Assembly (NCBI GenBank): GCA_964016885.1
Contig: OZ024741.1
Location: 395,560,001-395,624,000 of the forward strand
From: Eledone cirrhosa
Lineage: Eukaryota
Direction: 5' to 3'
Length of the DNA stretch: 64,000 bases
Positions 33,001 to 55,400 of the stretch are shown in pieces (within the stretch, counting starts at the first letter, position 1; every line of letters starts with the position of its first letter). The notes under the pieces were generated by a model. It had not been told where the DNA came from and searched no databases. It saw only the letters and a program-made list of their open reading frames with translations. Both the position numbers and the translations under genes were made by a program.

Positions 33001-36000
33001 AGGGAGAGTCTTACACTCTCAGTGGCTTAACAACAGGGAAACTGGAGATATATACCGACAGTAGCTGGGGAGTTCATTCTGGGATAGAGTGACACCTTGT
33101 CCAGGGACAGTCTTACACTCTCAGTGGCTTAACAACAGAGAAACTGGAGATATATACCGACCGTAGCTGGGGAGTTCATTCTGTGATAGACTGACACCTT
33201 GTCCAGGGAGTGTCTTACATTCTTAGTGGCTTAACAACAGGGAACCCGGAGATATATACCGACAGTAGATGGGGAGTTAATTCTGTGATAGACTGACATC
33301 TTGTCCAGGGAGTGTCTTACATTCTTAGTGGCTTAACAACAGGGAACCCGGAGATATATACCGACAGTTGATGGGGAGTTAATCCTGTGATAGACTGGCA
33401 CATTTTCCAGGGAGAGTCTTACACTCTCAGTGGCTTAACAACAGGGAAACTGGAGATATATACCGACAGTAGCTGGGGAGTTAATTCTGTGATTGACTGA
33501 CACCTTGTCCAGGGACAGTCTTACACTCTCAGTGGCTTAACAACAGGGAACCCGGAGATATATACCGACAGTAGCTGGGGAGTTAATCCTGTGATAGACT
33601 GACGTCTTGTCCAGGGAGTGTCTTACCCTCTCAGTGGCTTAACAACAGGGAAACTGGAGATATATACCGACAGTAGCTGTGGAGTTAATCCTGTGATAGA
33701 CTGACACCTTGTCCAGGGAGAGTCTTACACTCTCAGTGTCTTAACAACAGGGAAACCGGAGATAAATACCGACAGTAGCTGGGGAGTTAATACTGTGATA
33801 GACTGACGTCTTGTCCAGTGACAGTCTTACACTCTCAGTGGCTTAACAACAGCGAAACCGGAGATAAATACCGACAATTGCTGGGGAGTTAATTCTTTGA
33901 TAGACTGATTCCTTGTCCAGGGACAGTCTTACACTCTCAGTGGCTTAACAACAGCGAAACCGGAGATAAATACCGACAATTGCTGGGGAGTTAATTCTTT
34001 GATAGACTGATTCCTTGTCCAGGGACAGTCTTACACTCTCAGTGGCTTAACAACAGGGAAACTGGAGATATATACCGACAGTAGCTGGGAGTTCATTCTG
34101 TGATAGAGTGAGACCTTGTCCAGGGAGAGTCTTACACTCTCAGTGGCTTAACAACAGGGAAACTGGAGATATATACCGACAGTAGCTGGGGAGTTAATTC
34201 TGTGATAGACTGACATCTTGTCCAGGGAGTGTCTTACATACTTAGTGGCTTAACAACAGGGAACCCGGAGATATATACCGACAGTAGCTGGGGTGTTAAT
34301 CCTGTGATAGACTGACACCTTGTCCAGGGAGAGTCTTACACTCTCAGTGGCTTAACAACAGGGAAACTGGAGATATATACCGACAGTAGCTGGGGAGTTC
34401 ATTCTGGGATAGAGTGACACCTTGTCCAGGGACAGTCTTACACTCTCAGTGGCTTAACAACAGAGAAACTGGAGATATATACCGACCGTAGCTGGGGAGT
34501 TCATTCTGTGATAGACTGACACCTTGTCCAGGGAGTGTCTTACATTCTTAGTGGCTTAACAACAGGGAACCCGGAGATATATACCGACAGTAGATGGGGA
34601 GTTAATTCTGTGATAGACTGACATCTTGTCCAGGGAGTGTCTTACATTCTTAGTGGCTTAACAACAGGGAACCCGGAGATATATACCGACAGTAGATGGG
34701 GAGTTAATCCTGTGATAGACTGGCACATTTTCCAGGGAGAGTCTTACACTCTCAGTGGCTTAACAACAGGGAAACTGGAGATATATACCGACAGTAGCTG
34801 GGGAGTTAATTCTGTGATTGACTGACACCTTGTCCAGGGACAGTCTTACACTCTCAGTGGCTTAACAACAGGGAACCCGGAGATATATACCGACAGTAGC
34901 TGGGGAGTTAATCCTGTGATAGACTGACGTCTTGTCCAGGGAGTGTCTTACCCTCTCAGTGGCTTAACAACAGGGAAACTGGAGATATATACCGACAGTA
35001 GCTGGGGAGTTAATCCTGTGATAGACTGACACCTTGTCCAGGTAGAGTCTTATACTCTCAGTGGCTTAACAACAGGGAAAACGGAGATAAACACCGACAG
35101 TAGCTGGGGAGTTAATCCTGTGATAGACTGACACCTTGTCCAGGGAGAGTCTTACACTCTCAGTGTCTTAACAACAGGGAAACCGGAGATAAATACCGAC
35201 AGTAACTGGGGAGTTAATTCTGTGATAGACTGACGTCTTGTCCAGTGACAGTCTTACACTCTCAGTGGCTTAACAACAGCGAAACCGGAGATAAATACCG
35301 ACAATTGCTGGGGAGTTAATTCTTTGATAGACTGATACCTTTTCCAGGGACAGTCTTACACTCTCAGTGGCTTAACAACAGGGAAACTGGAGCTATATAC
35401 CGACAGTAGCTGGGGAGTTCATTCTGGGATAGAGTGACACCTTGTCCAGGGAGTGTCTTACATTCTTAGTGGCTTAACAACAGGGAAACCGGAGATATAT
35501 ACCGACAGTAGCTGGGGAGTTAATCCTGTGATAGACTGCCACCTTGTCCAGGGAGTGTCTTACACTCTCTGTGGCTTAACAGCAGGGAAACCGGAGATAT
35601 ATACTGACAGTAGCTGGGGAGTTAATCCTGTGATAGACTGACGTCTTGTCCAGGGAGAGTCTTACACTCTCAGTGGCTTAACAACAGGGAAACCGGAGAT
35701 ATATAGCGACAGTAGCTGGGGAGTTAACCCTGTGACAGACTGACGCCTTGTCCAGGGAGAGTCTTACACTCTCAGTGGCATAACAACAGGGAAACCCGAG
35801 ATATATACCGACAGTAGTTGGGGAGTTAATCCTGTGATAGACTGACGTCTTGTCCAGTGACAGTCTTACACTCTCGGTAGCTTAACAACAGGGAAATTGG
35901 AGATATATACCGACAGTAGCTGGGGAGTTAATTCTGTGATAGACTGACACCTTGTCCAGGGAGAGTCTTACACTCTCAGTGTCTTAACAACAGGGAAACC

Positions 36001-39000
36001 GGAGATAAATACCGACAGTAACTGGGGCGTTAATACTGTGATAGACTGACGTCTTGTCCAGTGACAGTCTTACACTCTCAGTGGCTTAACAACAGCGAAA
36101 CCGGAGATAAATACCGACAATTGCTGGGGAGTTAATTCTTTGATAGACTGATTACTTGTCCAGGGACAGTCTTACACTCTCAGTGGCTTAACAACAGGGA
36201 AACTGGAGATATATACCGACAGTAGCTGGGGAGTTCATTCTGTGATAGAGTGACACCTTGTCCAGGGACAGTCTTACACTCTCAGTGGCTTAACAACAGG
36301 GAAACTGGAGATATATACCGACAGTAGCTGGGGAGTTAATTCTGTGATTGACTGACATCTTGTCCAGGGAGTGTCTTACATTCTTAGTGGCTTAACAACA
36401 CGGAACCCGGAGATATATACCGACAGTAGCTGGGGTGTTAATCCTGTGATAGACTGACACCTTGTCCAGGGAGAGTCTTACACTCTCAGTGGCTTAACAA
36501 CAGGGAAACCGGAGATATATACCGACAGTAGCTGGGGAGTTAATCCTGTGATAGACTGCCACCTTGTCCAGGGAGTGTCTTACACTCTCTGTGGCTTAAC
36601 AGCAGGGAAACCGGAGATATATATCGACAGTAGCTGGGGAGTTAATCCTGTGATAGACTGCCACCTTGTCCAGGGAGTGTCTTACACTCTCTGGCTTAAC
36701 AGCAGGGAAACCGGAGATATATACCGACAGTAGCTGGGGAGTTAATCCTGTGATAGACTGACACCTTGTCCAGGGAGAGTCTTACACTCTCTCTTTCTTA
36801 TCAACAGGGAAACCGGAGATAAATAACGACAGTAGCTGGGGAGTTAATTCTGTGATAGACTGACACCTTGTCCAGGGACAGTCTTACACTCTCAGTGGCT
36901 TAACAACAGGGAAACCGGAGATATATACCGACAGTAGCTGGGGAGTAAATTCTGTGATAGACTGACACCTTGTCCAGGGACAGTCTTACATTCTCAGTGG
37001 CTTAACAACAGGGAAACCGGAGATATATACCGACAGTAGCTGGGGAGTTAATCCTGTGATAGACTGACACCTTGTCCAGGGAGAGTCTTACACTCTCAGT
37101 GGCTTAACAACAGGGAAACCGGAGATATATACCGACAGTAGCTAGGGAGTTAATTCTGTGATAGACTGACACCTTGTCCAGGGACAGTCTTACACTCTCA
37201 GTGGCTTAACAACAGGGAAACCGGAGATATATACCGACAGTAGCTAGGGAGTTAATTCTGTGATAGACTGACGTCTTGTCCAGGGAGAGTCTTACACTCT
37301 CAGTGGCTTAACAACAGGGAAACCGGAGATATATACCGACAGTAGCTGGGGAGTTAACCCTGTGACAGACTGACACCATTTCCAGGGAGAGTCTTACACT
37401 CTCTGTATCTTATCAACAGGGAAACCGGAGATAAATAACGACAGTAGCTGGGGAGTTAATCCTGTGACAGACTGACGCCTTGTCCAGGGAGAGTCTTACA
37501 CTCTCAGTGGCTTAACAACAGGGAAACCCGAGATATATACCGACAGTAGTTGGGAAGTTAATCCGGTGATAGACTGACGTCTTGTCCAGTGACAGTCTTA
37601 CACTCTCGGTAGCTTAACAACAGGGAAATTGGAGATATATACCGACAGTAGTTGGGGAGTTAATCCTGTGATAGACTGACACCTTGTCCAGGGAGAGTCT
37701 TACACTCTCAGTCGCTTTACAACAGGGAAACCGGAGATATATACCGACAGTAGTTGGGGAGTTAATCCTGTGATAGACTGACACCTTGTCCAGGGAGAGT
37801 CTTACACTCTCAGTGTCTTAACAACAGGGAAACCGGAGATAAATACCGACAGTAGCTGTGGAGTTAATACTGTGATAGACTGACGTCTTGTCCAGTGACA
37901 GTCTTACACTCTCAGTGGCTTAACAACAGCGAAACCGGAGATAAATACCGACAATTGCTGGGGAGTTAATTCTTTGATAGACTGATTCCTTGTCCAGGGA
38001 CAGTCTTACACTCTCAGTGGCTTAACAACAGGGAAACTGGAGATATATACCGACAGTAGCTGGGAGTTCATTCTGTGATAGAGTGAGACCTTGTCCAGGG
38101 ACAGTCTTACACTCTCAGTGGCTTAACAACAGGGAAACTGGAGATATATACCGACAGTAGCTGGGGAGTTAATTCTGTGATAGACTGACATCTTGTCCAG
38201 GGAGTGTCTTACATACTTAGTGGCTTAACAACAGGGAACCCGGAGATATATACCGACAGTAGCTGGGGTGTTAATCCTGTGATAGACTGACACCTTGTCC
38301 AGGGAGAGTCTTACACTCTCAGTGGCTTAACAACAGGGAAACCGGAGATAAATACCGACATTAGCTGTGGAGTTAATCCTGTGATAGACTGGCACCTTTT
38401 CCAGGGAGAGTCTTACACTCTCAGTGGCTTAACAACAGGGAAACCGGAGATATATACCGACAGTAGCTGGGGAGTTAATCCTGTGATAGACTGCCACCTT
38501 GTCCAGGGAGTGTCTTACACTCTCTGTGGCTTAACAGCAGGGAAACCGGAGATATATACCGACAGTACCTGGGGAATTAATCCTGTGATAGACTGCCACC
38601 TTGTCCAGGGAGTGTCTTACACTCTCTGTGGCTTAACAGCAGGGAAACCGGAGATATATACCGACAGTAGCTGGGGAGTTAATCCTGTGATAGACTGACA
38701 CCTTGTCCAGGGAGAGTCTTACACTCTCAGTGGCTTAACAACAGGGAAACCGGAGATATATACCGACAGTAGCTGGGGAGTTAATTCTGTGATAGACTGA
38801 CACCTTGTCCAGGGACAGTCTTACATTCTCAGTGGCTTAACAACAGGGAAACCTGAGATAAATACCGACAGTAGCTGGGGAGTTAATCCTGTGATAGACT
38901 GACACCTTGTCCAGGGACAGTCTTACATTCTCAGTGGCTTAACAACAGGGAAACCGGAGATATATACCGACAGTAGCTGGGGAGCTAATCCTGTGATAGA

Positions 39001-40456
39001 CTGACACCTTGTCCAGGGAGAGTCTTACACTCTCAGTGGCTTAACAACAGGGAAACCGTAGATATATACCGACAGTAGCTGGGGAGGTAATCCTGTGACA
39101 GATTGACACCATTTCCAGGGAGAGTCTTACACTCTCTGTGGCTTAACAACAGGGAAACCGGAGATAAATAACGACAGTAGCTGGGGAGTTAATTCTGTGA
39201 TAGACTGACACCTTGTCCAGGGACAGTCTTACACTCTCTGTAGCTTAACAACAGGGAAACCGGAGATATATACCGAAAGTAGCTGGGGAGTTAATTCTGT
39301 GATAGACTGACGTCTTGTCCAGGGAGAGTCTTACACTCTCAGTGGCTTAACAACAGGGAAACCGGAGATATATACCGACAGTAGCTGGGGAGTTAACCTG
39401 TGACAGACTGACACCATTTCCAGGGAGAGTCTTACACTCTCTGTATCTTATCAACAGGGAAACCGGAGATAAATAACGACAGTAGCTGGGGAGTTAATCC
39501 TGTGACAGACTGACGCCTTGTCCAGGGAGAGTCTTACACTCTCAGTGGCTTAACAACAGGGAAACCCGAGATATATACCGACAGTAGTTGGGGAGTTAAT
39601 CCTGTGATAGACTGACGTCTTGTCCAGTGACAGTCTTACACTCTCGGTAGCTTAACAACAGGGAAACTGGAGATATATACCGACAGTAGCTGGGGAGTTC
39701 ATTCTGTGATAGAGTGACACCTTGTCCAGGGACAGTCTTACACTCTCAGTGGCTTAACAACAGGGAAACTGGAGATATATACCGACAGTAGCTGGGGAGT
39801 TCATTCTGTGATAGAGTGACACCTTGTCCAGGGACAGTCTTACACTCTCAGTGGCTTAACAACAGGGAAACCGGAGATATATACCGACAGTAGCTGGGGA
39901 GTTAATCCTGTGATAGACTGACACCTTGTCCAGGGAGAGTCTTACACTCTCAGTGGCTTAACAACAGGGAAACCGGAGATATATACCGACAGTAGCTGGG
40001 GAGTTAATCCTGTGATAGACTGGCACCTTTTCCAGGGAGAGTCTTACACTCTCAGTGGCTTAACAACAGGGAAACCGGAGATATATACCGACAGTAGCTG
40101 GGGAGTTAATCCTGTGATAGACTGCCACCTTGTCCAGGGAGTGTCTTACACTCTCTGTGGCTTAACAGCAGGGAAACCGGAGATATATACCGACAGTAGC
40201 TGGGGAGTTAATCCTGTGATAGACTGACGTCTTGTCCAGGGAGTGTCTTACCCTCTCAGTGGCTTAACAACAGGGAAACCGGAGATATATACCGACAGTA
40301 GCTGGGGAGTTAATCCTGTGATAGACTGACACCTTGTTCAGGGAGAGTCTTACACTCTCAGTGGCTTAACAACAAGTAAACCGGAGATAAATAACGACAG
40401 TATCTGGAGAGTTGATCCTGTGATAGACTTACACTGTCAGTGGCATAAATACCAAC
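1..40456. repeat. SatA: tandem satellite array, 102-bp monomer, ~396 copies, continues beyond left window edge
   Basis: Read directly. Consensus ACAGGGAAACCGGAGATATATACCGACAGTAGCTGGGGAGTTAATCCTGTGATAGACTGACACCTTGTCCAGGGAGAGTCTTACACTCTCAGTGGCTTAACA (102 bp) repeats head-to-tail in one orientation, with a few substitutions per copy and rare 1-3 bp indels. Last copies (40330-40456) are degenerate and internally deleted. Confidence 0.99.
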
Positions 40457-40584
40457 CTAATCAGACTTTATTTTAGAACAGATTTTAACTAACTTCCACG
40501 TTATACATTCATATTGGTACGTTTCACTGCACTACACTGTTAAATCATTGGACATTGATAGATAGTATCGTTAATTGAGTATAA
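40457..40584. other. Unique AT-rich island 1 between SatA and SatB
   Basis: About 130 bp without the 102-bp or 37-bp periodicity; boundaries approximate (+/-10 bp). Confidence 0.85.
40477..40516 (+). CDS. Putative 40-nt internal micro-exon (one open frame: QILTNFHVIHSY + TG)
   Basis: CTAAT branch-like motif at 40457-40461, TTTATTTTAG acceptor ending 40476 (alternative AACAG ending 40481, same frame) and TTG|GTACGT donor at 40517. Only one of the three frames is open. Motif-based inference only; no homology evidence. Confidence 0.3.
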
Positions 40585-43500
40585 TTGTACTATACTATAT
40601 ACACCTCTCTATTATACACCACTGTACTGTACTATATACACCTCTCTATTATACACCACTGTACTGTACTATACTATATACACCTCTCTATTATACACCA
40701 CTGTACTGTACTGTACTATATACACCTTTCTATTATACACCATTGTACTGTACTGTACTATATACACCTCTCTATTATACACCACTGTACTGTACTATAT
40801 ACACCTCTCTATTATACACCATTGTACTGTACTGTACTATATACACCTCTCTATTATACACCACTGTACTGTACTATACTATATACACCTCTCTATTATA
40901 CACCACTGTACTGTACTGTACTATATACACCTCTCTATTATACACCACAGTACTGTACTGTACTATATACACCTCTCTATTATACACCACTGTACTGTAC
41001 TGTACTATATACACCTCTCTATTATACACCATTGTACTGTACTATATACACCTCTCTATTATACATGACTGTACTGTACTGTACTATACACACCTGTCTA
41101 TTATACACCACTGTATTGTACAGTACTATATAACCCTCTCTATTATACACAACTGTACTGTACTATATACACCTCTCTATTATACACCACTGCACTGTAC
41201 TATATACACCTCTCTTTAATACACCACTGTACTGTACTATATACACCTCCCTATTATACACCACTGTACTGTACTGTACTATATACACCTCTCTATTATA
41301 CACCACTGTAGTGTACTGTACTATACACACCTGTCTATTATACACCACTGTACTGTACTGTACTATATACGCCTCCCTATTATACACAACTGTACTGTAC
41401 TATATACACCTCTCTATTATACACCACTGCACTGTACTATATACACCTCTCTTTAATACACCACTGTACTGTACTATATACACCTCCCTATTATACACCA
41501 CTGTACTGTACTGTACTATATACACCTCTCTATTATACACCACTGTACTGTACTGTACTATACACACCTGTATATTATACACCACTGTACTGTACTATAT
41601 ACACCTCTCTATTATACACCACTGTACTGTACTGTACTATATACACCTCCCTATTATACAGAACTGTACTGTACTATATACACCTCTCTATTATACACCA
41701 CAGTACTGTGCTGTACTATATACCCCTCTCTATTATACACCACAGTACTGTACTATATACCCCTCTCTATTATACACTACAATACTGTACTATATACACC
41801 TCTCTATAATACACCACTGTACTGTACTATATACACCTCTCTATTATACACCACTGTACTGTACTGTACTATATACACCTCTCTATTATACACCACTGTA
41901 CTGTACTGTACTATATACACCTCTCTATTATACACCACTGTACTGTACTATATACACCTCTCTATTATACACCACTGTACTGTACTATATACACCTCTCT
42001 ATAATACACCACTGTACTGTACTGTACTATATACACCTCTCTATTATACACCACTGTACTGTACTTTACTGTACTGTACTATATACACCTCTCTATTATA
42101 CACCACTGTACTGTACTGTACTGTACTGTACTATATACACCTCTCTATTATACACCACTGTACTGTACTGTACTATATACACCTCTCTATTATAGACCAC
42201 TGTACTGTACTGTACTATACACACCTGTCTATTATACACCACTGTACTGTACTATATACACCTCTCTATTATACACCACTATACTGTACTGTACTATATA
42301 CACCTCTCTATTATACACCACTGTACTGTACTGTACTATATACACCTCTCTATTATACACCACTGTACTGTACTGTACTATACACACCTGTCTATTTTAC
42401 ACCACTGTACTGTACTATATACACCCCTCTATTATACACCACTGTACTGTACTATACACACCTCACTATTATACACCACTGTACTATACTGTACTATATA
42501 CACCACTGCACTGTACTATATATACCTCTCTATTATACACCACTGTACTGTACTATATACACCCCTCTATTATACACCACTGTACTGTACTATATACACC
42601 TCTCTATTATACACCACTTTACGGTACTCTACTATATACACCTCTCTATTATACACCACTGTACTGTACTGTACTATATACACCTCACTATTATACACCA
42701 TTGTACTGTACTATATACACCTCTCTATTATACACCACTGTACTGTACTATATACACCTCTCTATAATACACCACTGTACTGTACTGTACTATATACACC
42801 TCTCTATTATACACCATTGTACTGTACTGTACTATATACACCTCTCTATTATACACCACTGTACTGTACTGTACTATATACACCTCTCTATTATACACCA
42901 CTGTACTGTACTGTACTATACACACCTGTCTATTTTACACCACTGTACTGTACTATATACACCCCTCTATTATACACCACTGTACTGTACTATACACACC
43001 TCACTATTATACACCACTGTACTATACTGTACTATATACACCACTGCACTGTACTATATATACCTCTCTATTATACACCACTGTACTGTACTATATACAC
43101 CCCTCTATTATACACCACTGTACTGTACTATATACACCTCTCTATTATACACCACTGTACTGTACTGTACTATATACACCTCTCTATTATACACCACTGT
43201 ACTGTATTATATACACCTCTCTATTATACACCACTCTACTGTACTGTACTATATACACCTCTCTATAATACACCACTGTACTGTACTGTACTATATACAC
43301 CTCTCTATTATACACCACTATACTGTACTGTACTATATACACCTCTCTATTATACACCACTGTACTGTACTGTACTATATACACCTCTCTATTATACACC
43401 ACTGTACTGTACTGTACTATACACACCTGTCTATTTTACACCACTGTACTGTACTATATACACCCCTCTATTATACACCACTGTACTGTACTATACACAC

Positions 43501-45530
43501 CTCACTATTATACACCACTGTACTATACTGTACTATATACACCACTGCACTGTACTATATATACCTCTCTATTATACACCACTGTACTGTACTATATACA
43601 CCCCTCTATTATACACCACTGTACTGTACTATATACACCTCTCTATTATACACCACTTTACGGTACTCTACTATATACACCTCTCTATTATACACCACTG
43701 TACTGTACTGTACTATATACACCTCACTATTATACACCATTGTACTGTACTATATACACCTCTCTATTATACACCACTGTACTGTACTATATACACCTCT
43801 CTATAATACACCACTGTACTGTACTGTACTATATACACCTCTCTATTATACACCATTGTACTGTACTGTACTATATACACCTCTCTATTATACACCACTG
43901 TACTGTACTGTACTATATACACCTCTCTATTATACACCACTGTACTGTACTGTACTATACACACCTGTCTATTTTACACCACTGTACTGTACTATATACA
44001 CCCCTCTATTATACACCACTGTACTGTACTATACACACCTCACTATTATACACCACTGTACTATACTGTACTATATACACCACTGCACTGTACTATATAT
44101 ACCTCTCTATTATACACCACTGTACTGTACTATATACACCCCTCTATTATACACCACTGTACTGTACTATATACACCTCTCTATTATACACCACTGTACT
44201 GTACTGTACTATATACACCTCTCTATTATACACCACTGTACTGTATTATATACACCTCTCTATTATACACCACTGTACTGTACTGTACTATATACACCTC
44301 TCTATTATACACCACTGTACTGTACTGTACTGTACTATATACACCTCTCTATTTTATACCACTGTACTATACCATATACACTGCTCTATTATACACCATT
44401 GTACTGTACTGTACGATATACACCTCTCTATTACCCCTCTCTATTATACACCACTGTACTGTACTATATAACCCTCTCTATTATACACACCTCTCTTTTA
44501 TACACCACTGTACTGAACTGTACTGTACTATATACTCCTCCTCTCTATTATACACCACTTTACTGTACTAGATACCCCTCTCTATAATACACCACTGTAG
44601 TGTCCTATATACACCTCTCTATTATACACCACTGTACTGTACTGTACTATATCCAACTCTCTATTATACACCACTGTACTGTACTATATACACCTCTCTA
44701 TAATACACCACTGTACTGTACTATTTACACCTCTCTATTATACACCACTGTACTGTACTGTACTGTACTATATACACCTCTCTATTATACACCACTGTAC
44801 TGTACGATATACACCTCTCTATAATACACCACTGTACTGTACTATATACACCTCTCTATTATACACCACTGTACTGTACTGTACTATATACACCTCTCTA
44901 TTATACACAACTGTACTGTACTATATGCACCTCTCTATTATACACCACTGTACTGTACTATATACCCCTCTCTATTATACACCACAGTACTGTACTATAT
45001 ACCCCTATCTATTATACACCACTGTACTGTACTATATACACCCCTCTATTATACACCACTGTACTGTACTATATACACCTCTCTATTATACACCACTTAA
45101 TTGTACTGTATACACATCTCTATTATACACTACTGTACTGTACTATATACACCTCTCTATCATACACCACTGTACTGTACTATATACACCTCTCTATTAT
45201 ACACCACTTAACTGTACTGTATACACATCTCTATTATACACTACTGTACTGTACTATATACACCTCTCTATCATACACCACTGTACTGTACTAAATACAC
45301 CTCTCTATTATACACCACTTAACTGTACCGTATACACATCTCTGTTATACACCACTGTACTGTTCTGTACTATATACACCTCTCTATTATACACCACTCT
45401 ATGTACTGTACTATATACACCTCTCTATAATACACCACTCTACTGTACTATATACACCTCTCTATTATACACCACTGTATGTACTGTATTATATACCCCT
45501 ATCTATTATACACCACTTAACTACACTATA
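40585..45530. repeat. SatB: tandem minisatellite, 37-bp base monomer with variable (ACTGT)n (37/42/47 bp units), roughly 125 copies
   Basis: Unit ACACCTCTCTATTATACACC(ACTGT)nACTATAT with n mostly 2-3; successive unit starts 40601, 40638, 40680 give 37 and 42 bp. The + strand is strongly G-poor. Confidence 0.97.
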
Positions 45531-45627
45531 CAACACTTTGAGTGGTGAACATTACGTAACTGTACTTCACAACACCTTGTGTGGTGAACACCACTCAACT
45601 AGACTGCATAACACTTTGAGTGTGACA
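45511..45627. repeat. Three degenerate 39-bp composite units (SatB-like half + SatC-like half)
   Basis: CACCACTTAACTACACTATACAACACTTTGAGTGGTGAA (45511), CATTACGTAACTGTACTTCACAACACCTTGTGTGGTGAA (45550), CACCACTCAACTAGACTGCATAACACTTTGAGTGTGACA (45589); a fourth copy follows SatC at ~45854-45894. Confidence 0.8.
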
Positions 45628-45854
45628 CAACACGTTGAGTGTGGCACAACACGTTGAGTGTGACACAACACGTTGAGTGTGGCACAACACGTTGAGTGTG
45701 ACATAACACGTTGCGTGTGGCACAATACGTTGAGTGTGTCACAACACGTTGAGTGTGGCACAACACGTTGAGTGTGACACAACACTTTGAGTGTGACACA
45801 ACACTTTGAGTGTGACACAACACTTTGAGTGTGACACAACACGTTGAGTATGGC
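45608..45854. repeat. SatC: 19-bp minisatellite, 13 tandem copies
   Basis: ACAACAC(G/T)TTGAGTGTG(A/G)C repeated at exact 19-bp spacing (45608, 45627, 45646 ... 45836). Confidence 0.97.
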
Positions 45855-45972
45855 ACCACCCTTAACTACACTCTACAACACTTTGAATGTGACACGCCAC
45901 TACACACGCCTATGTAGAACACTAAGCCGCACTGATTGAACGATTGGAACACAAGTTCTAATCTTGTACCAG

Positions 45973-45985
45973 TAATATACTATGA
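45973..45985 (+). CDS. Putative coding part of a terminal exon (completes ...C-N-I-L-stop if spliced to 40477-40516)
   Basis: CTAAT at 45958-45962, CTTGTACCAG acceptor ending 45972, then T AAT ATA CTA TGA. Phase fits the upstream micro-exon (TG|T = Cys). Inference from short motifs; weak pyrimidine tract and short branch-to-AG distance. Confidence 0.28.
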
Positions 45986-46024
45986 CGAACTTTAAAGTAG
46001 AAATACTCTTGCGGGTATTTTAGA

Positions 46025-46030
46025 AATAAA
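46025..46030 (+). promoter_or_regulatory. Candidate polyadenylation signal AATAAA
   Basis: Canonical hexamer 40 nt after the putative stop codon, followed by GT-rich sequence (TTGTCAGTGTCGT...TGTTGTG). The hexamer is seen directly; function is inferred. Confidence 0.3.
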
Positions 46031-46032
46031 CA

Positions 46033-46480
46033 TTGTCAGTGTCGTAACGCTAGCTCCGTGCTCCTGTTGTGAGTGCATCGTTTATCAGGCTCTGTGCCCC
46101 TGTTGTCAACACCACAGTGCAACCCCCTATACTCTTATTGCGAGCACCACAGAACAACCCCTATACTCTCGTTGCGAGCACCACAGAGCAACCCCCTATA
46201 CTCTTGTTGTGAGCACCACAGAGCAACCTCCTATACTCTTGTTGCGAGCGCGTCGTACAGCAACTTCTGTGCATCAGTTGTGATCATCGTACAGCAAGTT
46301 CTGGGCTCCGGTTGCAAGCGTCACACATCTAGCTCTATGCTAGAATTGTGAGGGCAATACAACTAGCTATATACTACAGTTGTGAGCGTCATACAACACA
46401 CTATATACAATTGTTGTAAGCGCATCGTACAGCAAGCTCTATGCTTTTGTTGCGATCATCGATCAGCAAGCACGATGCTA
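46033..46480. repeat. Diverged, GC-richer edge monomers of SatD (34-36 bp), including a local ~35-bp subfamily
   Basis: Units retain TTG(T/C)GAG...CTAT...CTCTTG landmarks at ~34-36 bp spacing; about four copies of GAGCACCACAGAGCAACCCCCTATACTCTTGTTG-like sequence at ~46105-46250. Confidence 0.85.
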
Positions 46481-49400
46481 CTGTTGTGAGTGTCATACAA
46501 CTAGCTATATGCTACTGTTGCGAGTGTCATACAACTAGCTATATGCTACTGTTGTGAGTGTCATACAACTAGCTATATGCTACTTTTGTGAGTGTCATAC
46601 AACTAGCTATATGCTCTTGTTGTGAGTGTCATACAACTAACTATATACTCTTGTTGTGAGTGTCATACAACTAGCTATATTCTCTTGTTATGAGTGTCAT
46701 ACGACTAGCTATATGCTACTGTTGTGAGTGTCATACAACTAACTATATACTCTTGTTGTGAGTGTCATACAACTAACTATATTCTCTTGTTGTGAGTGTC
46801 ATACAACTAACTATTTTCTCTTGTTGTGAGTGTCATACAACTAGCTATATACTCTTGTTGTGAGTGTCATACAACTAACTATATTCTCTTGTTGTGAGTG
46901 TCATACAACTAACTATATTCTCTTGTTGTGAGTGTCATACAACTAACTATATACTCTTGTTGTGAGTGTCATACAACTAAATATTTTCTCTTGTTGTGAG
47001 TGTCATACAACTAGCTATATGCTACTTTTGTGAGTGTCATACAACTAGCTATATGCTCTTGTTGTGAGTGTCATACAACTAACTATATACTCTTGTTGTG
47101 AGTGTCATACAACTAGCTATATTCTCTTGTTATGAGTGTCATACGACTAGCTATATGCTACTGTTGTAAGTGTCATACAACTAACTATATACTCTTGTTG
47201 TGAGTGTCATACAACTAACTATATTCTCTTGTTGTGAGTGTCATACAACTAACTATTTTCTCTTGTTGTGAGTGTCATACAACTAGCTATATACTCTTGT
47301 TGTGAGTGTCATACAACTAACTATATTCTCTTGTTGTGAGTGTCATACAACTAACTATATTCTCTTGTTGTGAGTGTCATACAACTAGCTATATATTCTT
47401 GTTGTAAGTGTCATACAACTAGCTATATTCTCTTGTTGTGAGTGTCATACAACTAGCTATATACTCTTGTTGTGAGTGTCATACAACTAACTATATTCTC
47501 TTGTTCTGAGTGTCATACAACTAGCTATATGCTACTGTTGTGAGTTTCATACAACTAGCTATATGCTACTGTTGTGAGTGTCATACAGCTAGCTATATGC
47601 TCTTGTTGTGAGTGTCATACAACTAGCTATATTCTCTTGTTGTGAGTGTCATACGACTAGCTATATGTTCTTGTTGTGAGTGTCATACAACTAGCTATAT
47701 TCTCTTGTTGCGAGTGTCATACAACTAGCTATATGCTCTTGTTGTGAGTGTCATACAACTAAATATATTCTCTTCTTGCTAGTGTCATACAACTAGCTAT
47801 ATTCTCTTGTTGTGAGTGTCATACAACTAACTATATGCTCTTGTTGTGAGTGTCATACAACTAGCTATATACTCTTGTTGTGAGTGTCATACAACTAGCT
47901 ATATTCTCTTGTTGTGAGTGTCATACAACTAACTATATTCTCTTGTTGTGAGTGTCATACAACTAACTATATACTCTTGTTGTGAGTGTCATACAACTAG
48001 CTATATACTCTTGTTGTGAGTGTTATACAACTAACTATATGCTCTTGTTGTGAGTGCCATACAACTAGCTATATACTCTTGTTGTGAGTCTCATACAACT
48101 AGCTATATGCTACTGTTGTGAGTGTCATATAACTAACTATATTCTCTTGTTGTGAGTGTCATACAACTAACTATATGCTCTTGTTGTGAGTGTCATACAA
48201 CTAACTATATTCTCTTGTTGTGAGTGTCATACAACTAGCTACTTTCTATTTATATAAGTGTCATACAACTAACTATATTCTCTTGTTGTGAGTGTCATAC
48301 AACTAACTATATACTCTTGTTGTCAGTGTCATACAACTAACTCTATTCTCTTGTTGTGAGTGTCATACAACTAACTATATTCTCTTGTTGTGAGTGTCAT
48401 ACAACTAACTATATGCTCTTGTTGTGAGTGTCATACAACTAACTATATTCTCTTGTTGCGAGTGTCATACAACTAACTATATTCTCTTGTTGCGAGTGTC
48501 ATACAACTAACTATATACTCTTGTTGTGAGTGTCATACAACTAACTATATTCTCTTGTTGTGAGTGGCATACAACTAACTATATACTCTTGTTGTGAGTG
48601 TCATACAACTAGCTATATTCTCTTGTTGTGAGTGTCATACAACTAGCTATAATCTCTTGTTGTGAGTGTCATACAACTAGCTATATACTCTTGTTGTGAG
48701 TGTCATACAACTAGCTATATTCTCTTGTTGTGAGTGTCATACAACTAACTATATTCTCTTGTTGTGAGTGTCATACAACTAACTATATACTCTTGTTGTG
48801 AGTGTCATACAACTAACTTATATTCTCTTGTTGTGAGTATCATACAACTAACTATATACTCTCGTTGTGAATGTCATACAACTAACTACATGCTCTTGTT
48901 GTGAGTGTCATACAACTAACTATATTCTCTTGTTGTGTGTGTCATACAACTAACTATATTCTCTTGTTGTGAGTGTCATACAACTAGCTATATGCTCTTG
49001 TTGTGAGTGTCATACAACTAACTATATACTCTTGTTGCGAGTGTCATACAACTAACTATATGCTCTTGTTGTGAGTGTCATACAACTAACTATATTCTCT
49101 TGTTGTGAGTGTCATACAACTAACTATATTCTCTTGTTGTGAGTGTCATACAACTATATTCTCTTGTTGTTAGTGTCATACAACAAGCTATATTCTCTTG
49201 TTGTGAGTGTCATACAACTAACTATATTCTCTTGTTGTGAGTGTCATACAACTAACTATTTACTCTTATTGTGAGTGTCATACAACTAACTATATGCTCT
49301 TGTTGTGAGTGTCATACAACTAACTATATACTCTTGTTGTGAGTGTCATACAACTAGCTATATTCTCTTGTTGTGAGTGTCATACAACTAACTATATTCT

Positions 49401-52400
49401 CTTGTTGTGAGTGTCATACAGCTAGCTATATTCTCTTGTTGTGAGTGTCATAAAACTAACTATATTCTCTTGTTGTTAGTGTCATACGACAAGCTATATT
49501 CTCTTGTTGTGAGTGTCATACAACTAGCTATTTTCTCTTGTTGTGAGTGTCATACAACTAACTATATTGTCTTCTTGTTAGTGTCATACAACTAACTATA
49601 TTCTCTTGTTGTGAGTGTCATACAACTAACTATATGCTCTTGTTGTGAGTGTCATACAACTAACTATATTCTCTTGTTGTCAGTGTCATACAACTAACTC
49701 TATTCTCTTGTTGTGAGTGTCATACAACTAACTATATACTCTTGTTGTGAGTGTCATACACCTAAATGTATTCTCTTGTTGTGAGTGTCATACAACTAAC
49801 TATATACTCTTGTTATGAGTGTCATACAACTAAATGTATTCTCTTGTTGTGAGTGTCATACAACTAGCTATATTCTCTTGTTGCGAGTGTCATACAACTA
49901 ACTATATACTCTTGTTGTGAGTGTCATACAACTAGCTATATGCTCTTGTTGTTAGTGTCATACAACTAACTATATACACTTGTTGTGAGTGTCATACAAC
50001 TAACTATATACTCTTGATGTGAGTGTCATACAACTGACTATATACTCTTGTTGTAAGTGTCATACAACTAGCTATATGCTCTTGTTGCGAGTGTCATACA
50101 ACAAACTAAATTCTCTTGTTGTGAGTATCATACAACTAACTATATTCTCTTGTTGTGAGTGTCATACAACTAACTATATTCTCTTGTTGTATGTGTCATA
50201 CAACTAGCTATATTCTCTTATTGTGAGTGTCATACAACTAACTCTATTCTCTTGTTGTGAGTGTCATACAACTAAGTATATTCTCTTGTTATCAGTGTCA
50301 TACAACTAGCTATATTCTCTTGTTGTGAGTGTCATACAACTAACTATATACTCTTGTTGTGATTGTCATACAACTAACAATATTCTCTTGTTGTGAGTGT
50401 CATACAACTAGCTATATTCTCTTGTAGTGAGTGTCCTACAACTAACTATATACTCTTGTTATGAGTGTCATACAACTAGCTATATTTTCTTGTTGTGAGT
50501 GTCATACAACTAACTATATACTCTTGTTGTGAATGTCATACAACTAACTATATACTCTTGTTGTGAGTGTCATACAACTAACTATATTCTCTTGTTATCA
50601 GTGTCATACAACTAGCTATATTCTCTTGTTGTGAGTGTCATACAACTAACTATATACTCTTGTTGTGATTGTCATACAACTAACAATATTCTCTTGCTGT
50701 GAGTGTCATACAACTAGCTATATTCTCTTGTTGTGAGTGTCCTACAACTAACTATATACTCTTGTTATGAGTGTCATACAACTAGCTATATTTTCTTGTT
50801 GTGAGTGTCATACAACTAACTATATACTCTTGTTGTGAATGTCATACAACTAACTATATACTCTTGTTGTGAATGTCATACAACTAGCTATATGCTCTTG
50901 TTGCCAGTGTCATACAACTAACTATATTCTCTTGTTGTGAGTGTCATACAACTAGCTATATGCTCTTGTCGTGAGTGTCATACAACTAACTATATACTCT
51001 TGTTGCGAGTGTCATACAACTAACTATATACTCTTGTTGTGAATGTTATACAACTAACTATATACTCTTGTTGTGAGTGTCATACAACTAACTATATGCT
51101 CTTGTTTCGAGTATCATACAACTAACTATATCCTCTTGTTGTGAGTGTCATACAACTAACTATATACTCTTGTTGCGAGTGTCATACAACTAACTATATA
51201 CTCTTGTTGTGAATGTCATACAACTAACTATATACTCTTGTTGTGAGTGTCATATAACTAACTATATGCTCTTGTTTCGAGTATCATACAACTAACTATA
51301 TCCTCTTGTTGTGAGTGTCATACAACTAACTATATTCTCTTGTTGCGAGTATCATACAACTAACTATATCCTCTTGTTGTGAGTGTCATACAACTAACTA
51401 TATACTCTTGTTGCGAGTGTCATACAACTAACTATATACTCTTGTTGTGAGTGTCATACAACTAGCTATATGCTCTTGTTGCGAGTGTCATACAACTAAC
51501 TATATACTCTTGTTGTGAGTGTCATACAATTAAATATATTCTCTTGTTGTGAGTGTCATACAACTAGCTATATTCTCTTGTTGTGCGTGTCATACCACTA
51601 ACTATATTCTCTTGTTGCGAGTGTCATACAACAAGCTATATTCTCTTGTTGTGAGTGTCATACAACTAACTATATTCTCTTGTTGTGAGTGTAATACAAC
51701 TAACTATATTCTATTGTTGTGAGTGTCATACAACTAGCTATATTCTCTTGTTGTGAGTGTCATACAACTCACTCTATTCTCTTGTTGTGAGTGTCATACA
51801 ACTAACTATATTCTCTTGTTGTGAGTGTCATACAACTAACTATATACTCTTGTTGTGAGTGTCATACAACTAACTATATACTCTTGTTGTGAGTGTCATA
51901 CAACTAACTATATTCTCTTTTTGTGAGTGTCATACAACTAACTATATACTCTTGTTGTGAGTGTCATACAACTAACTATATTCTCTTGTTGTGAGTGTCA
52001 TACAACTAGCTATATTCTCTTGTTGTGAGTGTCATACCACTAACGATGTTCACGTGTTGCGAGTGTGATACAACTAACTATATACTCTTGTTGTGAGTGT
52101 CATACAACTAGCTATATGCTCTTGTTGTGAGTGTCATACCACTAACTATATTCTCTTGTTGTGAGTGTCATACAACTAACTATATACTCTTGTTGTGAGT
52201 GTCATACAACAAGCTATATTCTCTTGTTGTGAGTGTCATACAACTAGCTATATTCTCTTGTTGTGAGTGTCATACAACTAGCTATATGCTCTTGTTGTGA
52301 ATGTCATACAACTAGCTATATTCTCTTGTTGTGAGTGTCATACAACTAACTATATTCTCTTGTTGCGAGTGTCCTACAACTAACTATATGCTCTTGTTGC

Positions 52401-55400
52401 GAGTATCATACAAGTAAATATATACTCTTGTTGCGAGTGTCATACAACTAACTATATACACTTGTTGTAAGTGTCATACAACTAGCTATATGCTCTTGTT
52501 GCGAGTGTCATATAACTAACTATATACTCTTGTTGTGAGTGTCATACAACTAACTATATTCTCTTGTTGTGTGTGTCATACAACTAACTATATACTCTTG
52601 TTGTGAGTGTCTTACAACTAGCTATATACTCTTGTTGCGAGTGTCATACAACTAACTATATACTCTTGTTGTGAATGTCATACAACTAACTATATACTCT
52701 TGTTGTGAGTGTCATACAACTAACTATATGCTCTTGTTTCGAGTGTCATACAACAAGTTATATTCTCTTGTTGTGAGTGTTATACCACTAATTATATTCT
52801 TTTGTTGCGAGTGTCATACAACTAACTATATACTCTTGTTATCAGTGTCATACAACTAGCTATATTCTCTTGTTGTGAGTGTCATACAACTAACTATATA
52901 CTCTTGTTGTGATTGTCATACAACTAAAAATATTCTCTTGTTGTGAGTGTCATACAACTAGCTATATTCTCTTGTTGTGAGTGTCCTACAACTAACTATA
53001 TACTCTTGTTATGAGTGTCATACAACTAGCTATATTTTCTTGTTGTGAGTGTCATACAACTAACTATATACTCTTGTTGTGAATGTCATACAACTAGCTG
53101 TATGCTCTTGTTGCCAGTGTCATACAACTAACTATATTCTCTTGTTGTGATTGTCATACAACTAGCTATATGCTCTTGTCGTGAGTGTCATACAACTAAC
53201 TATATACTCTTGTTGTGAGTGTCATACAACTAGCTATATGCTCTTGTTGCGAGTGTCATACAACTAAATATATACTCTTGTTGTGAATGTCATACAACTA
53301 ACTATATACTCTTGTTGTGAGTGTCATACAACTAACTATATGCTCTTGTTTCGAGTATCATACAACTAACTATATACTCTTGTTGTGAGTGTCATACAAC
53401 TAAATATATACTCTTGTTGCGAGTGTCATACAACTAACTACATACACTTGTTGTGAGTGTCATACAACTAGTTATATGCTCTTGTTGCGAGTGTCATACA
53501 ACTAACTATATACTCTTGTTGTGAGTGTCATACAACTAACTATATTCTCTTGTTGTGAGTGTCATACAACTAACTATATTCTCTTGTTGTCAGTGTCATA
53601 CAACTAACTCTATTCTCTTGTTGTGAGTGTCATACAACTAACTATATACTCTTGTTGTGAGTGTCATACACCTAAATGTATTCTCTTGTTGTGAGTGTCA
53701 TACAACTAACTATATACTCTTGTTATGAGTGTCATACAACTAAATGTATTCTCTTGTTGTGAGTGTCATACAACTAGCTATATTCTCTTGTTGCGAGTGT
53801 CATACAACTAACTATATACTCTTGTTGTGAGTGTCATACAACTAGCTATATGCTCTTGTTGTTAGTGTCATACAACTAACTATATACACTTGTTGTGAGT
53901 GTCATACAACTAACTATATACTCTTGATGTGAGTGTCATACAACTGACTATATACTCTTGTTGTAAGTGTCATACAACTAGCTATATGCTCTTGTTGCGA
54001 GTGTCATACAACAAACTAAATTCTCTTGTTGTGAGTATCATACAACTAACTATATTCTCTTGTTGTGAGTGTCATACAACTAACTATATTCTCTTGTTGT
54101 ATGTGTCATACAACTAGCTATATTCTCTTATTGTGAGTGTCATACAACTAACTCTATTCTCTTGTTGTGAGTGTCATACAACTAAGTATATTCTCTTGTT
54201 ATCAGTGTCATACAACTAGCTATATTCTCTTGTTGTGAGTGTCATACAACTAACTATATACTCTTGTTGTGATTGTCATACAACTAACAATATTCTCTTG
54301 TTGTGAGTGTCATACAACTAGCTATATTCTCTTGTAGTGAGTGTCCTACAACTAACTATATACTCTTGTTATGAGTGTCATACAACTAGCTATATTTTCT
54401 TGTTGTGAGTGTCATACAACTAACTATATACTCTTGTTGTGAATGTCATACAACTAACTATATACTCTTGTTGTGAGTGTCATACAACTAACTATATTCT
54501 CTTGTTATCAGTGTCATACAACTAGCTATATTCTCTTGTTGTGAGTGTCATACAACTAACTATATACTCTTGTTGTGATTGTCATACAACTAACAATATT
54601 CTCTTGCTGTGAGTGTCATACAACTAGCTATATTCTCTTGTTGTGAGTGTCCTACAACTAACTATATACTCTTGTTATGAGTGTCATACAACTAGCTATA
54701 TTTTCTTGTTGTGAGTGTCATACAACTAACTATATACTCTTGTTGTGAATGTCATACAACTAACTATATACTCTTGTTGTGAATGTCATACAACTAGCTA
54801 TATGCTCTTGTTGCCAGTGTCATACAACTAACTATATTCTCTTGTTGTGAGTGTCATACAACTAGCTATATGCTCTTGTCGTGAGTGTCATACAACTAAC
54901 TATATACTCTTGTTGCGAGTGTCATACAACTAACTATATACTCTTGTTGTGAATGTTATACAACTAACTATATACTCTTGTTGTAAGTGTCATATAACTA
55001 ACTATATGCTCTTGTTTCGAGTATCATACAACTAACTATATCCTCTTGTTGTGAGTGTCATACAACTAACTATATACTCTTGTTGCGAGTGTCTTACAAC
55101 TAACTATATACTCTTGTTGTGAGTGTCATACAACTAGCTATATGCTCTTGTTGCGAGTGTCATACAACTAACTATATACTCTTGTTGTGAATGTCATACA
55201 ACTAACTATATACTCTTGTTGTGAGTGTCATATAACTAACTATATGCTCTTGTTTCGAGTATCATACAACTAACTATATCCTCTTGTTGTGAGTGTCATA
55301 CAACTAACTATATACTCTTGTTGCGAGTGTCATACAACTAACTATATACTCTTGTTGTGAGTGTCATACAACTAGCTATATGCTCTTGTTGCGAGTGTCA

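What the first reader, a model, noticed from the sequence alone, without database searches (positions are those of the whole stretch)
40457..46045. The only two unique islands splice into a CaaX-terminated C-terminus plus poly(A) signal: possible gene hidden in satellite-filled giant introns
Seen: island 1 has CTAAT...TTTATTTTAG | 40 nt | GTACGT (40477-40516). Island 2 has CTAAT CTTGTACCAG | T AAT ATA CTA TGA ... AATAAA (45973-46030). Joining them across a 5456-bp GT-AG intron (40517-45972) in the only open frame gives ...QILTNFHVIHSYCNIL*. Established: Cys-a-a-Leu at a C-terminus is the geranylgeranyltransferase-I CaaX signal (CNIL is, as I recall, the human GBP2 terminus; no homology to GBPs is claimed). 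Satellite-filled giant introns are known from Drosophila Y fertility genes. Inference: these islands may persist because they are exons, making SatA part of a >40-kb intron, SatB/SatC a 5.5-kb intron and SatD the 3' flank. Caveats: all motifs are short and found post hoc in AT-rich DNA, no polybasic stretch precedes the CaaX, and the second acceptor is weak.
Basis: partly seen in the sequence, partly recalled or inferred. Interest (0 to 1): 0.75.

Follow-up and report, generated by a model that had tools for sequence, protein, structure and literature searches.

The report
Satellite-filled giant intron in octopod mucin
The proposed 40-base exon starts inside the tail of a short jumping element whose middle is repeated about 540 times between its own two ends, and the whole satellite block lies between exons of a SCO-spondin-like gene, likely as one 194-kb intron; the proposed lipid-anchor ending would not be made, because splicing from the nearest exon would create a stop codon.

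Summary
The motifs and the ...CNIL* frame are in the sequence as described, but the reading fails. Island 1 is not unique: its branch motif, acceptor AG and first 17 'exon' bases are the 3' tail of a tRNA-derived CORE-type SINE. That SINE's head sits at the left edge of SatA, and SatA is its 102-bp middle repeated 541 times. A + strand gene does surround the satellites, but it does not end here. One Octopus bimaculoides SCO-spondin-like protein model matches exons on both sides of the block, 14 predicted exons join without a stop across a 193,721-nt gap (98% satellite), and a cystine-knot terminus lies 256 kb past island 2. The nearest upstream exon ends on T, so splicing to island 1 makes TAA and the CaaX frame is not read; the domains are extracellular anyway. 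Against my reading: the full motif chain is rare in random DNA, the donor is strong, and the tail's acceptor is stronger than in 31 other copies. No RNA test was possible. Earlier unchecked notes of this scan describe SINE-born satellites, satellite-swollen introns and cassette mucins elsewhere in this genome.

The parts
1..64000 (+). The whole window lies inside a predicted 193,721-nt intron (C2:395,542,942-395,736,662; window-relative -17058 to 176662), 98.3% tandem repeat, of a SCO-spondin-like gene. Its exons are all outside the window: last upstream LDLa exon at -17172 to -17059 (ends in phase 1 on T); 15-nt micro-exon at 176663-176677; F5/8-C-like, Thr-rich and LDLa exons at 180180-195281; 33 x 1,329-bp two-exon cassette at 215786-259540; cystine-knot exon with stop at 302523-302815.
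   Evidence: inferred from DNA and a homologous protein model, no RNA
1..40434 (+). SatA, 102-bp unit = SINE profile positions 143-249; the array runs from -14707 to 40434 (541 copies, 55.1 kb). The parent SINE's head (profile 4-250) lies outside the window at -14970 to -14739.
   Evidence: head E 1.2e-51; head 192 of 233 identical to the family consensus; 349 measured units average 94.7% to their consensus
40444..40493 (+). 3' tail of the same SINE; supplies the 'branch point' (family CTGAT), the acceptor AG and the first 17 nt of the proposed exon
   Evidence: tail-only profile: best hit in 340 kb at 40456-40493, E 7.6e-4; 27 of 36 identical
40477..40516 (+). Exon-like 40-mer (likely pseudo-exon): weak acceptor (4.2), strong donor (9.7)
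   Evidence: gives TAA when joined to the nearest upstream exon
40586..45517 (.). SatB, 37/42-bp minisatellite
45510..45849 (.). SatC: 39-bp (3.2 copies) and 19-bp (12.6 copies) arrays
45900..46032 (.). Unmatched core of island 2 with the weak second acceptor (45972|45973, score 2.4), TGA and AATAAA (46025-46030)
   Evidence: present unchanged in contigs of 2 runs of one sample that may be the source of the assembly
46033..46481 (.). Decayed SatD-like edge, including a 35-bp array at 46110-46249
46482..64000 (.). SatD, 34-bp unit; runs on to window-relative 176,347 (3,823 copies, 130 kb)

Best explanation
Island 1 begins as the 3' tail of a single SINE whose 102-bp middle stands 541 times between its own head and tail, and both islands are likely just leftover spacers inside one predicted 194-kb intron of a SCO-spondin-like gene that likely ends 256 kb further on. 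Shown: head-(unit)n-tail collinearity, exons on both sides that match one homologous protein model in order, phase agreement across the block, TAA at the junction the CaaX model needs. Inferred mechanism: a SINE inserted in the intron; slippage or unequal exchange between two short look-alike words (TACCAGC at profile 143, CACCGGC at 245) made the first duplication; repeated unequal exchange lengthened and homogenised the array while the end units and tail decayed towards A/T; neighbouring intron DNA seeded SatB-D in the same way. The spliceosome would join the LDLa donor at -17059 to the strong micro-exon acceptor at 176663 and skip the 40-mer as one of many pseudo-exons.
For: SINE family: 5,316 first-look candidates, 40 scored, about 80% alike. 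Head at -14970, units = profile 143-249, tail to 40493; tail-only profile finds this spot best in 340 kb. Same head-(unit)n-tail plan with both ends at 8 of 11 other places examined. XP_052826933.1 residues 869-1277 map left of the block (60-92% per exon) and 1354-1439 and 1503-1539 right of it (48%, E 1e-19; 65%, E 2e-9). 14 exons join to 640 codons, 0 stops, 247 of 439 aligned residues identical. Junction codon TAA. Second acceptor scores below all 16 real acceptors, the first below 14 of 16. Equal cassettes occur at 0.61 per kb in other introns.
Against: Full motif chain is rare in the null (0-4 of 15,000). The donor scores above all 15 real donors (leave-one-out) and its hexamer is used by two real donors of this gene. 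The tail has gained pyrimidines: 0 of 31 other tails reach even 2.4, against 4.2 here; simulated neutral decay reaches 4.2 in only 0.1-3.5%; 13 of 23 G/C sites changed in the tail against 20 of 107 in the head. The proposed frame is phase-compatible with the gene, and skipping the last LDLa exon would open it. About 30 linker residues of the homolog were not found in this genome, and one small exon in my chain has a weak donor (GTCTGT). The homolog is a predicted model, and no single protein links the repeats to the cystine knot. Splice matrices come from only 16 acceptors and 15 donors.
Confidence: 0.87

Rival explanations
1. The SINE tail has been exonised and the two islands form a minor alternative 3' end. 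Splicing from the last LDLa exon makes TAA at the junction, the islands act as untranslated 3' exons, and AATAAA at 46025 ends the transcript, giving a short secreted VWD-C8-TIL-LDLa protein without the mucin, TSP1 and cystine-knot half. CNIL is then an untranslated coincidence.
For: Strong donor and strengthened acceptor; only 2 AATAAA inside the satellite block, one of them here; the stop would lie 38 nt before the last junction, inside the recalled 50-55-nt NMD escape zone; a limpet mucus protein has only the first third of SCO-spondin (PMC7333891, passages).
Against: Second acceptor is weaker than all 16 real ones and its branch A is only 12 nt from the AG (sequence; 18-40 nt recalled as usual); like cassettes are common; the array edge is decayed generally.
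Confidence: 0.06
2. The 40-mer is occasionally included as a poison or stepping-stone exon in the giant intron, stopping translation at the junction and sending the transcript to decay, or helping to remove the intron in pieces.
For: It is the only acceptor-donor cassette above threshold in the first 63.5 kb of the intron, scored region by region; inclusion gives an immediate stop.
Against: No AG|GT ratchet site scoring 4.2 or more in the whole intron; 61 equal cassettes lie in SatD; no conservation data.
Confidence: 0.04
3. One reading: the islands are coding exons that give a protein ending in CNIL, which is geranylgeranylated.
For: Frame and motifs exist; phase fits the upstream gene; 7 of 8 upstream exons tested would read through if the last LDLa exon were skipped; CNIL alone directs prenylation-dependent localisation of GFP (PMC2998424, passages).
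Against: Nearest exon gives TAA; all domains of the gene are extracellular types and CaaX prenyltransferases are cytosolic (recalled); the gene has a cystine-knot end; CaaX-like ends close 107 of 19,903 random frames; the acceptor is SINE tail.
Confidence: 0.02
4. The block or the gene order is an assembly artefact.
For: The gene's 5' half is on the other strand 1.19 Mb away behind another gap, so the scaffold has a likely orientation error nearby. Array lengths in assemblies can be wrong.
Against: No N gap between -47254 and 390000; SINE head and tail and the exon order agree across the block.
Confidence: 0.01

Closest known systems
SINE-derived satellites (sSat1-3) of squamates, Vassetzky et al. 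2023, PMC10702118 (parts 1-4 of 5 read)
   Same: Unit shorter than the SINE (70-290 nt there, 102 here), hundreds of homogeneous units (up to about 1,200 there, 541 here), terminal units running on to a SINE end, short sibling arrays elsewhere in the genome.
   Different: Mollusc, CORE-type SINE; both SINE ends kept, which that paper calls an uncommon or minor variant; lies in a predicted intron of a protein-coding gene.
CORE-SINE superfamily (BivaCORE-SINE2; octopus OR1/OR2), PMC4824008 (passages, supplement part 1 of 4 and searched passages) and PMC4758252 (passages)
   Same: tRNA-like head followed by a domain 54 of 68 identical, counted by hand, to the printed BivaCORE-SINE2.
   Different: Different 3' half and a (TTTAAC/TAAC)n tail; identity with OR1 or OR2 not tested (sequences not seen).
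Invertebrate SCO-spondin-like / gel-forming mucin-like proteins: O. bimaculoides XP_052826933.1 and XP_014786394.2; PMC4948705 and PMC7333891 (passages)
   Same: VWD-C8-TIL units, LDLa cluster, TSP1, C-terminal cystine knot.
   Different: One more LDLa than the homolog model, 33 tandem F5/8-C-like plus Thr-rich cassettes, and a 194-kb satellite intron.
Satellite-filled giant introns of Drosophila Y fertility genes, PMC11207136 (abstract and outline only)
   Same: An intron of hundreds of kb made almost wholly of tandem repeats (satellite content of the fly introns recalled).
   Different: Smaller (194 kb against Mb); a mucus-type gene on a 416-Mb scaffold; satellites of 19-102 bp, one traceable to a single SINE; no evidence here on expression or special processing.
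CaaX prenylation signal (human GBP2 CNIL), PMC2998424 (passages)
   Same: The four letters CNIL before a stop.

Membership tests
SINE-derived satellite (sSat) | Repeat unit is a part of a dispersed SINE | tested here: met
   Units match profile 143-249 at E about 1e-26
SINE-derived satellite (sSat) | At least four middle monomers, homogeneous | tested here: met
   541 copies, 91% matches; 94.7% mean identity for 349 units
SINE-derived satellite (sSat) | Terminal unit extends to a SINE end | tested here: met
   Head at -14970 and tail to 40493
tRNA-derived SINE | Short dispersed family with sharp ends, tRNA-like head with A and B boxes, simple-repeat tail | tested here: met
   About 290 bp, many contigs; 30-copy alignment shows TGGCCTAATGG, GGTTCAATTCC and the tail; box consensus recalled
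tRNA-derived SINE | Target-site duplication around this copy | tested here: inconclusive
   No shared word of 6 nt or more; the copy is about 18% diverged
tRNA-derived SINE | 3' end shared with a partner LINE | not tested
   No LINE 3' ends compared
CORE-SINE superfamily | CORE domain after the tRNA head | tested here: met
   54 of 68 identical to BivaCORE-SINE2 as printed against the consensus; counted by hand
SCO-spondin-like mucin gene | VWD-C8-TIL units followed by an LDLa cluster | tested here: met
   the VWD exons lie behind an assembly gap on the other strand
SCO-spondin-like mucin gene | TSP1 repeats and C-terminal cystine knot | tested here: met
   (Cys_knot E 2.7e-4, under the curated cut-off); link to the upstream half inferred from order and strand
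SCO-spondin-like mucin gene | Signal peptide | not tested
   First exons not located; the homolog model has no evident N-terminus
Spliced terminal exon pair | Junction-spanning RNA reads and poly(A) after 46030 | not testable with these tools
   No RNA holder listed
Spliced terminal exon pair | Acceptors within the range of the gene's real ones | tested here: inconclusive
   First 4.2 (above 2 of 16), second 2.4 (below all 16); small matrix
CaaX-prenylated protein | CaaX translated as the C-terminus from the preceding exon | tested here: not met
   Junction codon TAA
CaaX-prenylated protein | C-terminus exposed to the cytosol | tested here: not met
   Upstream domains found are VWD, C8, TIL, LDLa, all extracellular types; topology rule recalled

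The most novel reading that the evidence does not exclude
A SINE tail stranded behind its own 55-kb satellite has been exonised: with island 2 it forms an alternative 3' end that cuts a giant mucin gene short after the LDLa cluster, so the cell makes a short secreted isoform without transcribing the remaining 256 kb, a switch born from the same element that swelled the intron.
Probability: 0.06. Interest if true: 0.6.

Novelty: new member of a known kind. Interest (0 to 1): 0.24.

Why it matters
The hidden prenylated protein is very likely not real. What remains is a clean case of a satellite caught between the two ends of its parent SINE, with short sibling arrays that show earlier stages, inside a predicted 194-kb, 98%-satellite intron of a gene whose located exons are all open. 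It extends SINE-born satellites to a mollusc CORE-SINE and offers a locus to test how a conserved gene copes with intron gigantism outside Drosophila Y genes. Both themes are known kinds and recur in this genome, so interest is modest. The locus also flags a likely scaffold orientation error and a gene that annotation would split.

Tried and rejected
RNA evidence: no RNA holder listed; this is no evidence either way. Laying runs on island 2 gave one unchanged contig in each of 2 runs of one sample and 0 reads in 2 RAD-seq runs; on island 1, 0 in 4 of 4 runs: no test. The 16-residue peptide was not searched in protein collections, so related C-termini elsewhere remain untested. The ESM Atlas gave no answer. 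A word search with the first F5/8-C-like exon found 0 of 61 candidates; the profile search gave 7 hits, of which one (a nemertean repeat protein) is a plausible relative and none spans the block (3 of 7 sequences read). Dispersed copies of island 2 or of the right edge of SatD: none listed beyond the locus itself and a 19-bp array on C12 (these searches skip common words, and 289 of 439 matches were not listed). Idea that SatB-D is one inverted-repeat transposon: only a 21-nt inverted SatB match at the right edge, no dispersed family; not pursued. Target-site duplication: none. Recursive AG|GT sites: none above threshold. Homolog linker residues encoded in the islands: no match above noise. 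My first exon chains had off-by-one boundaries, corrected. Of 356 long open frames listed, 139 were scanned against Pfam.
Full report
Observation. The window is G000:C2:395,560,001-395,624,000 of a 3.0-Gb genome. Positions outside it are given window-relative (C2 = 395,560,000 + p). CNIL is the GBP2 CaaX (PMC2998424, passages).

Island 1 is not unique. It matched a place on C15 at 84% that proved to be a dispersed element of about 290 bp: 5,316 first-look candidates, 40 scored. Thirty copies align with sharp ends, a tRNA-like head and a TTTAAC-type tail. The domain behind the head is 54 of 68 identical, counted by hand, to BivaCORE-SINE2 as printed in the supplement of PMC4824008, so it is a CORE-type SINE. 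A profile of the 30 copies places the head (positions 4-250) at -14970 to -14739, directly left of SatA, matches SatA units to positions 143-249, and runs the last unit into the tail up to 40493. A tail-only profile has its best hit in 340 kb at 40456-40493 (E 7.6e-4). SatA has 541 copies over 55.1 kb. The whole array is therefore one SINE with its middle multiplied. Of 30 loci returned by a SatA search I examined 13, covering 11 places; 8 show head, 2 to more than 26 units of 94-104 bp, and tail. PMC10702118 (parts 1-4 of 5 read) describes such satellites in squamates and calls the form with both ends uncommon. Island 2 is SatD-like from 46033 on; its 130-bp core has no match.

A real gene surrounds the block. 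Pfam found TIL and LDLa exons on the + strand left of SatA; seven LDLa exons end at -17059 (my scripts label the last one LDL8). Right of SatD, which ends at 176,347, lie a 15-nt micro-exon, F5/8-C-like and Thr-rich exons, another LDLa, 33 copies of a 1,329-bp two-exon cassette (33 of 33 in frame), TSP1 exons and a cystine-knot exon with a stop at 302,815. The TIL exon retrieves O. bimaculoides SCO-spondin-like XP_052826933.1, whose residues 869-1277 map left of the block and 1354-1439 and 1503-1539 right of it, in order. Fourteen predicted exons join into 640 codons with no stop, 247 of 439 aligned residues identical to that model. The last exon is 61% identical to XP_014786394.2, from a contig of the same length. 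The gap between -17059 and the micro-exon is 193,721 nt, 98.3% tandem repeat, with no N gap. The host is likely an octopod. Proteins named SCO-spondin occur in octopus skin mucus (PMC11431876, passages); whether they come from this gene's ortholog is unknown.

The CaaX model. The last LDLa exon ends in phase 1 on T and the 40-mer begins with AA, so the junction codon is TAA. The frame opens only if that exon is skipped (7 of 8 upstream exons tested read through). The domains are extracellular types, and prenyltransferases work in the cytosol (recalled). CaaX-like ends close 107 of 19,903 random frames nearby.

Chance, with results against my reading. With matrices from 16 acceptors and 15 donors of this gene, the island acceptors score 4.2 and 2.4 against 2.6-13.9 for real ones, and the donor 9.7 against at most 9.4. 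The whole chain was found in 0, 0, 0 and 4 of 15,000 random pairs; its first half in 10, 16, 157 and 525. It is rare, but the criteria were fitted afterwards and the scan holds notes on 1,671 windows of this genome. Cassettes at least as good as the 40-mer's acceptor, with a donor in the real range, occur 42 times in 68.3 kb of other introns and 61 times in SatD. One residue stays unexplained: of 38 tail hits, 31 had a locatable AG (7 dropped), and none scored 2.4 or more; simulated decay reaches 4.2 in 0.1-3.5% of trials. Faster A/T-ward decay at the array edge is my explanation; exonisation is the alternative. If used, the islands would be untranslated exons after a TAA, giving a short secreted isoform like the limpet protein that has only the first third of SCO-spondin (PMC7333891, passages). 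I give that 6%.

How it likely works. Shown: the anatomy above. Inferred: SINE insertion in the intron; a first duplication between the look-alike words at profile 143 and 245; growth and homogenisation by unequal exchange, as PMC10702118 proposes; like growth of SatB-D; splicing from -17059 to the strong acceptor at 176,663. No AG|GT ratchet site passed threshold, so how the intron is removed is open.

Comparison and novelty. SatA meets the three sSat features tested. The gene is SCO-spondin-like by domain order (PMC4948705 and PMC7333891, passages). The intron resembles those of Drosophila Y genes in size class and make-up only (PMC11207136, abstract). Six literature searches (listings, plus passages of PMC11481361 and PMC4758252) showed no report of this locus or of a cephalopod SINE-born satellite; most subscription papers are not searched, and unseen supplements may hold octopus SINE sequences. 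Unchecked notes of this scan report SINE-head satellites, a 171-kb satellite intron and cassette mucins elsewhere in this genome. Verdict: new member of known kinds; hidden CaaX gene not supported; interest 0.24.

Noticed in passing
G000:C2:395,512,546-745 and 396,702,652-851 (N gaps); exons at 396,859,700 down to 396,707,652, minus strand: The 5' half of the SCO-spondin-like gene (matches within homolog residues 2-798) runs on the minus strand into one gap, and the 3' half starts on the plus strand after another: likely a 1.19-Mb contig scaffolded the wrong way round. A real inversion is not excluded. Residues 799-868 were not found.
   Followed up: partly
window-relative 215786-259540 (L023-L025, L014, L035): 33 copies, 99% alike, of a 1,329-bp cassette with two exons (F5/8-C-like module and Thr-rich linker), all in frame; the module has a relative in a nemertean repeat protein.
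   Followed up: partly
window-relative about 176373-176393 (L019:6373-6393): A 21-nt inverted copy of the SatB unit sits at the far edge of SatD, 131 kb from SatB. SatB, SatC, the 35-bp array and SatD also show weak to clear pairwise similarity.
   Followed up: partly
L107, L108, L111, L117/L127/L130, L123, L124, L134, L136: Sibling arrays from the same SINE segment with head and tail kept, units 94-104 bp, 70-80% alike to SatA: a series from 2 to more than 26 units.
   Followed up: partly
window-relative 187023-194156; C2:396,718,107-396,726,394 and 396,762,280 onwards: Other introns of the same gene also hold satellites (57 bp x 125; 26 bp x 319 and x 683 or more).
   Followed up: no
G000:C2:396,853,941-396,854,078, plus strand: A second, partial copy of a VWD exon (74% to the homolog) in opposite orientation inside the gene's 5' half.
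   Followed up: no
G000:C12:6,210,202-6,211,034: A 19-bp array 76-78% alike to SatC on another contig.
   Followed up: no
L034, L033, L010, L022, L023, L009, L027: LINE-like reverse-transcriptase fragments, some with a PHD finger, a GIY-YIG fragment (L009) and an HTH_32 domain (L027) in the flanks and introns.
   Followed up: no
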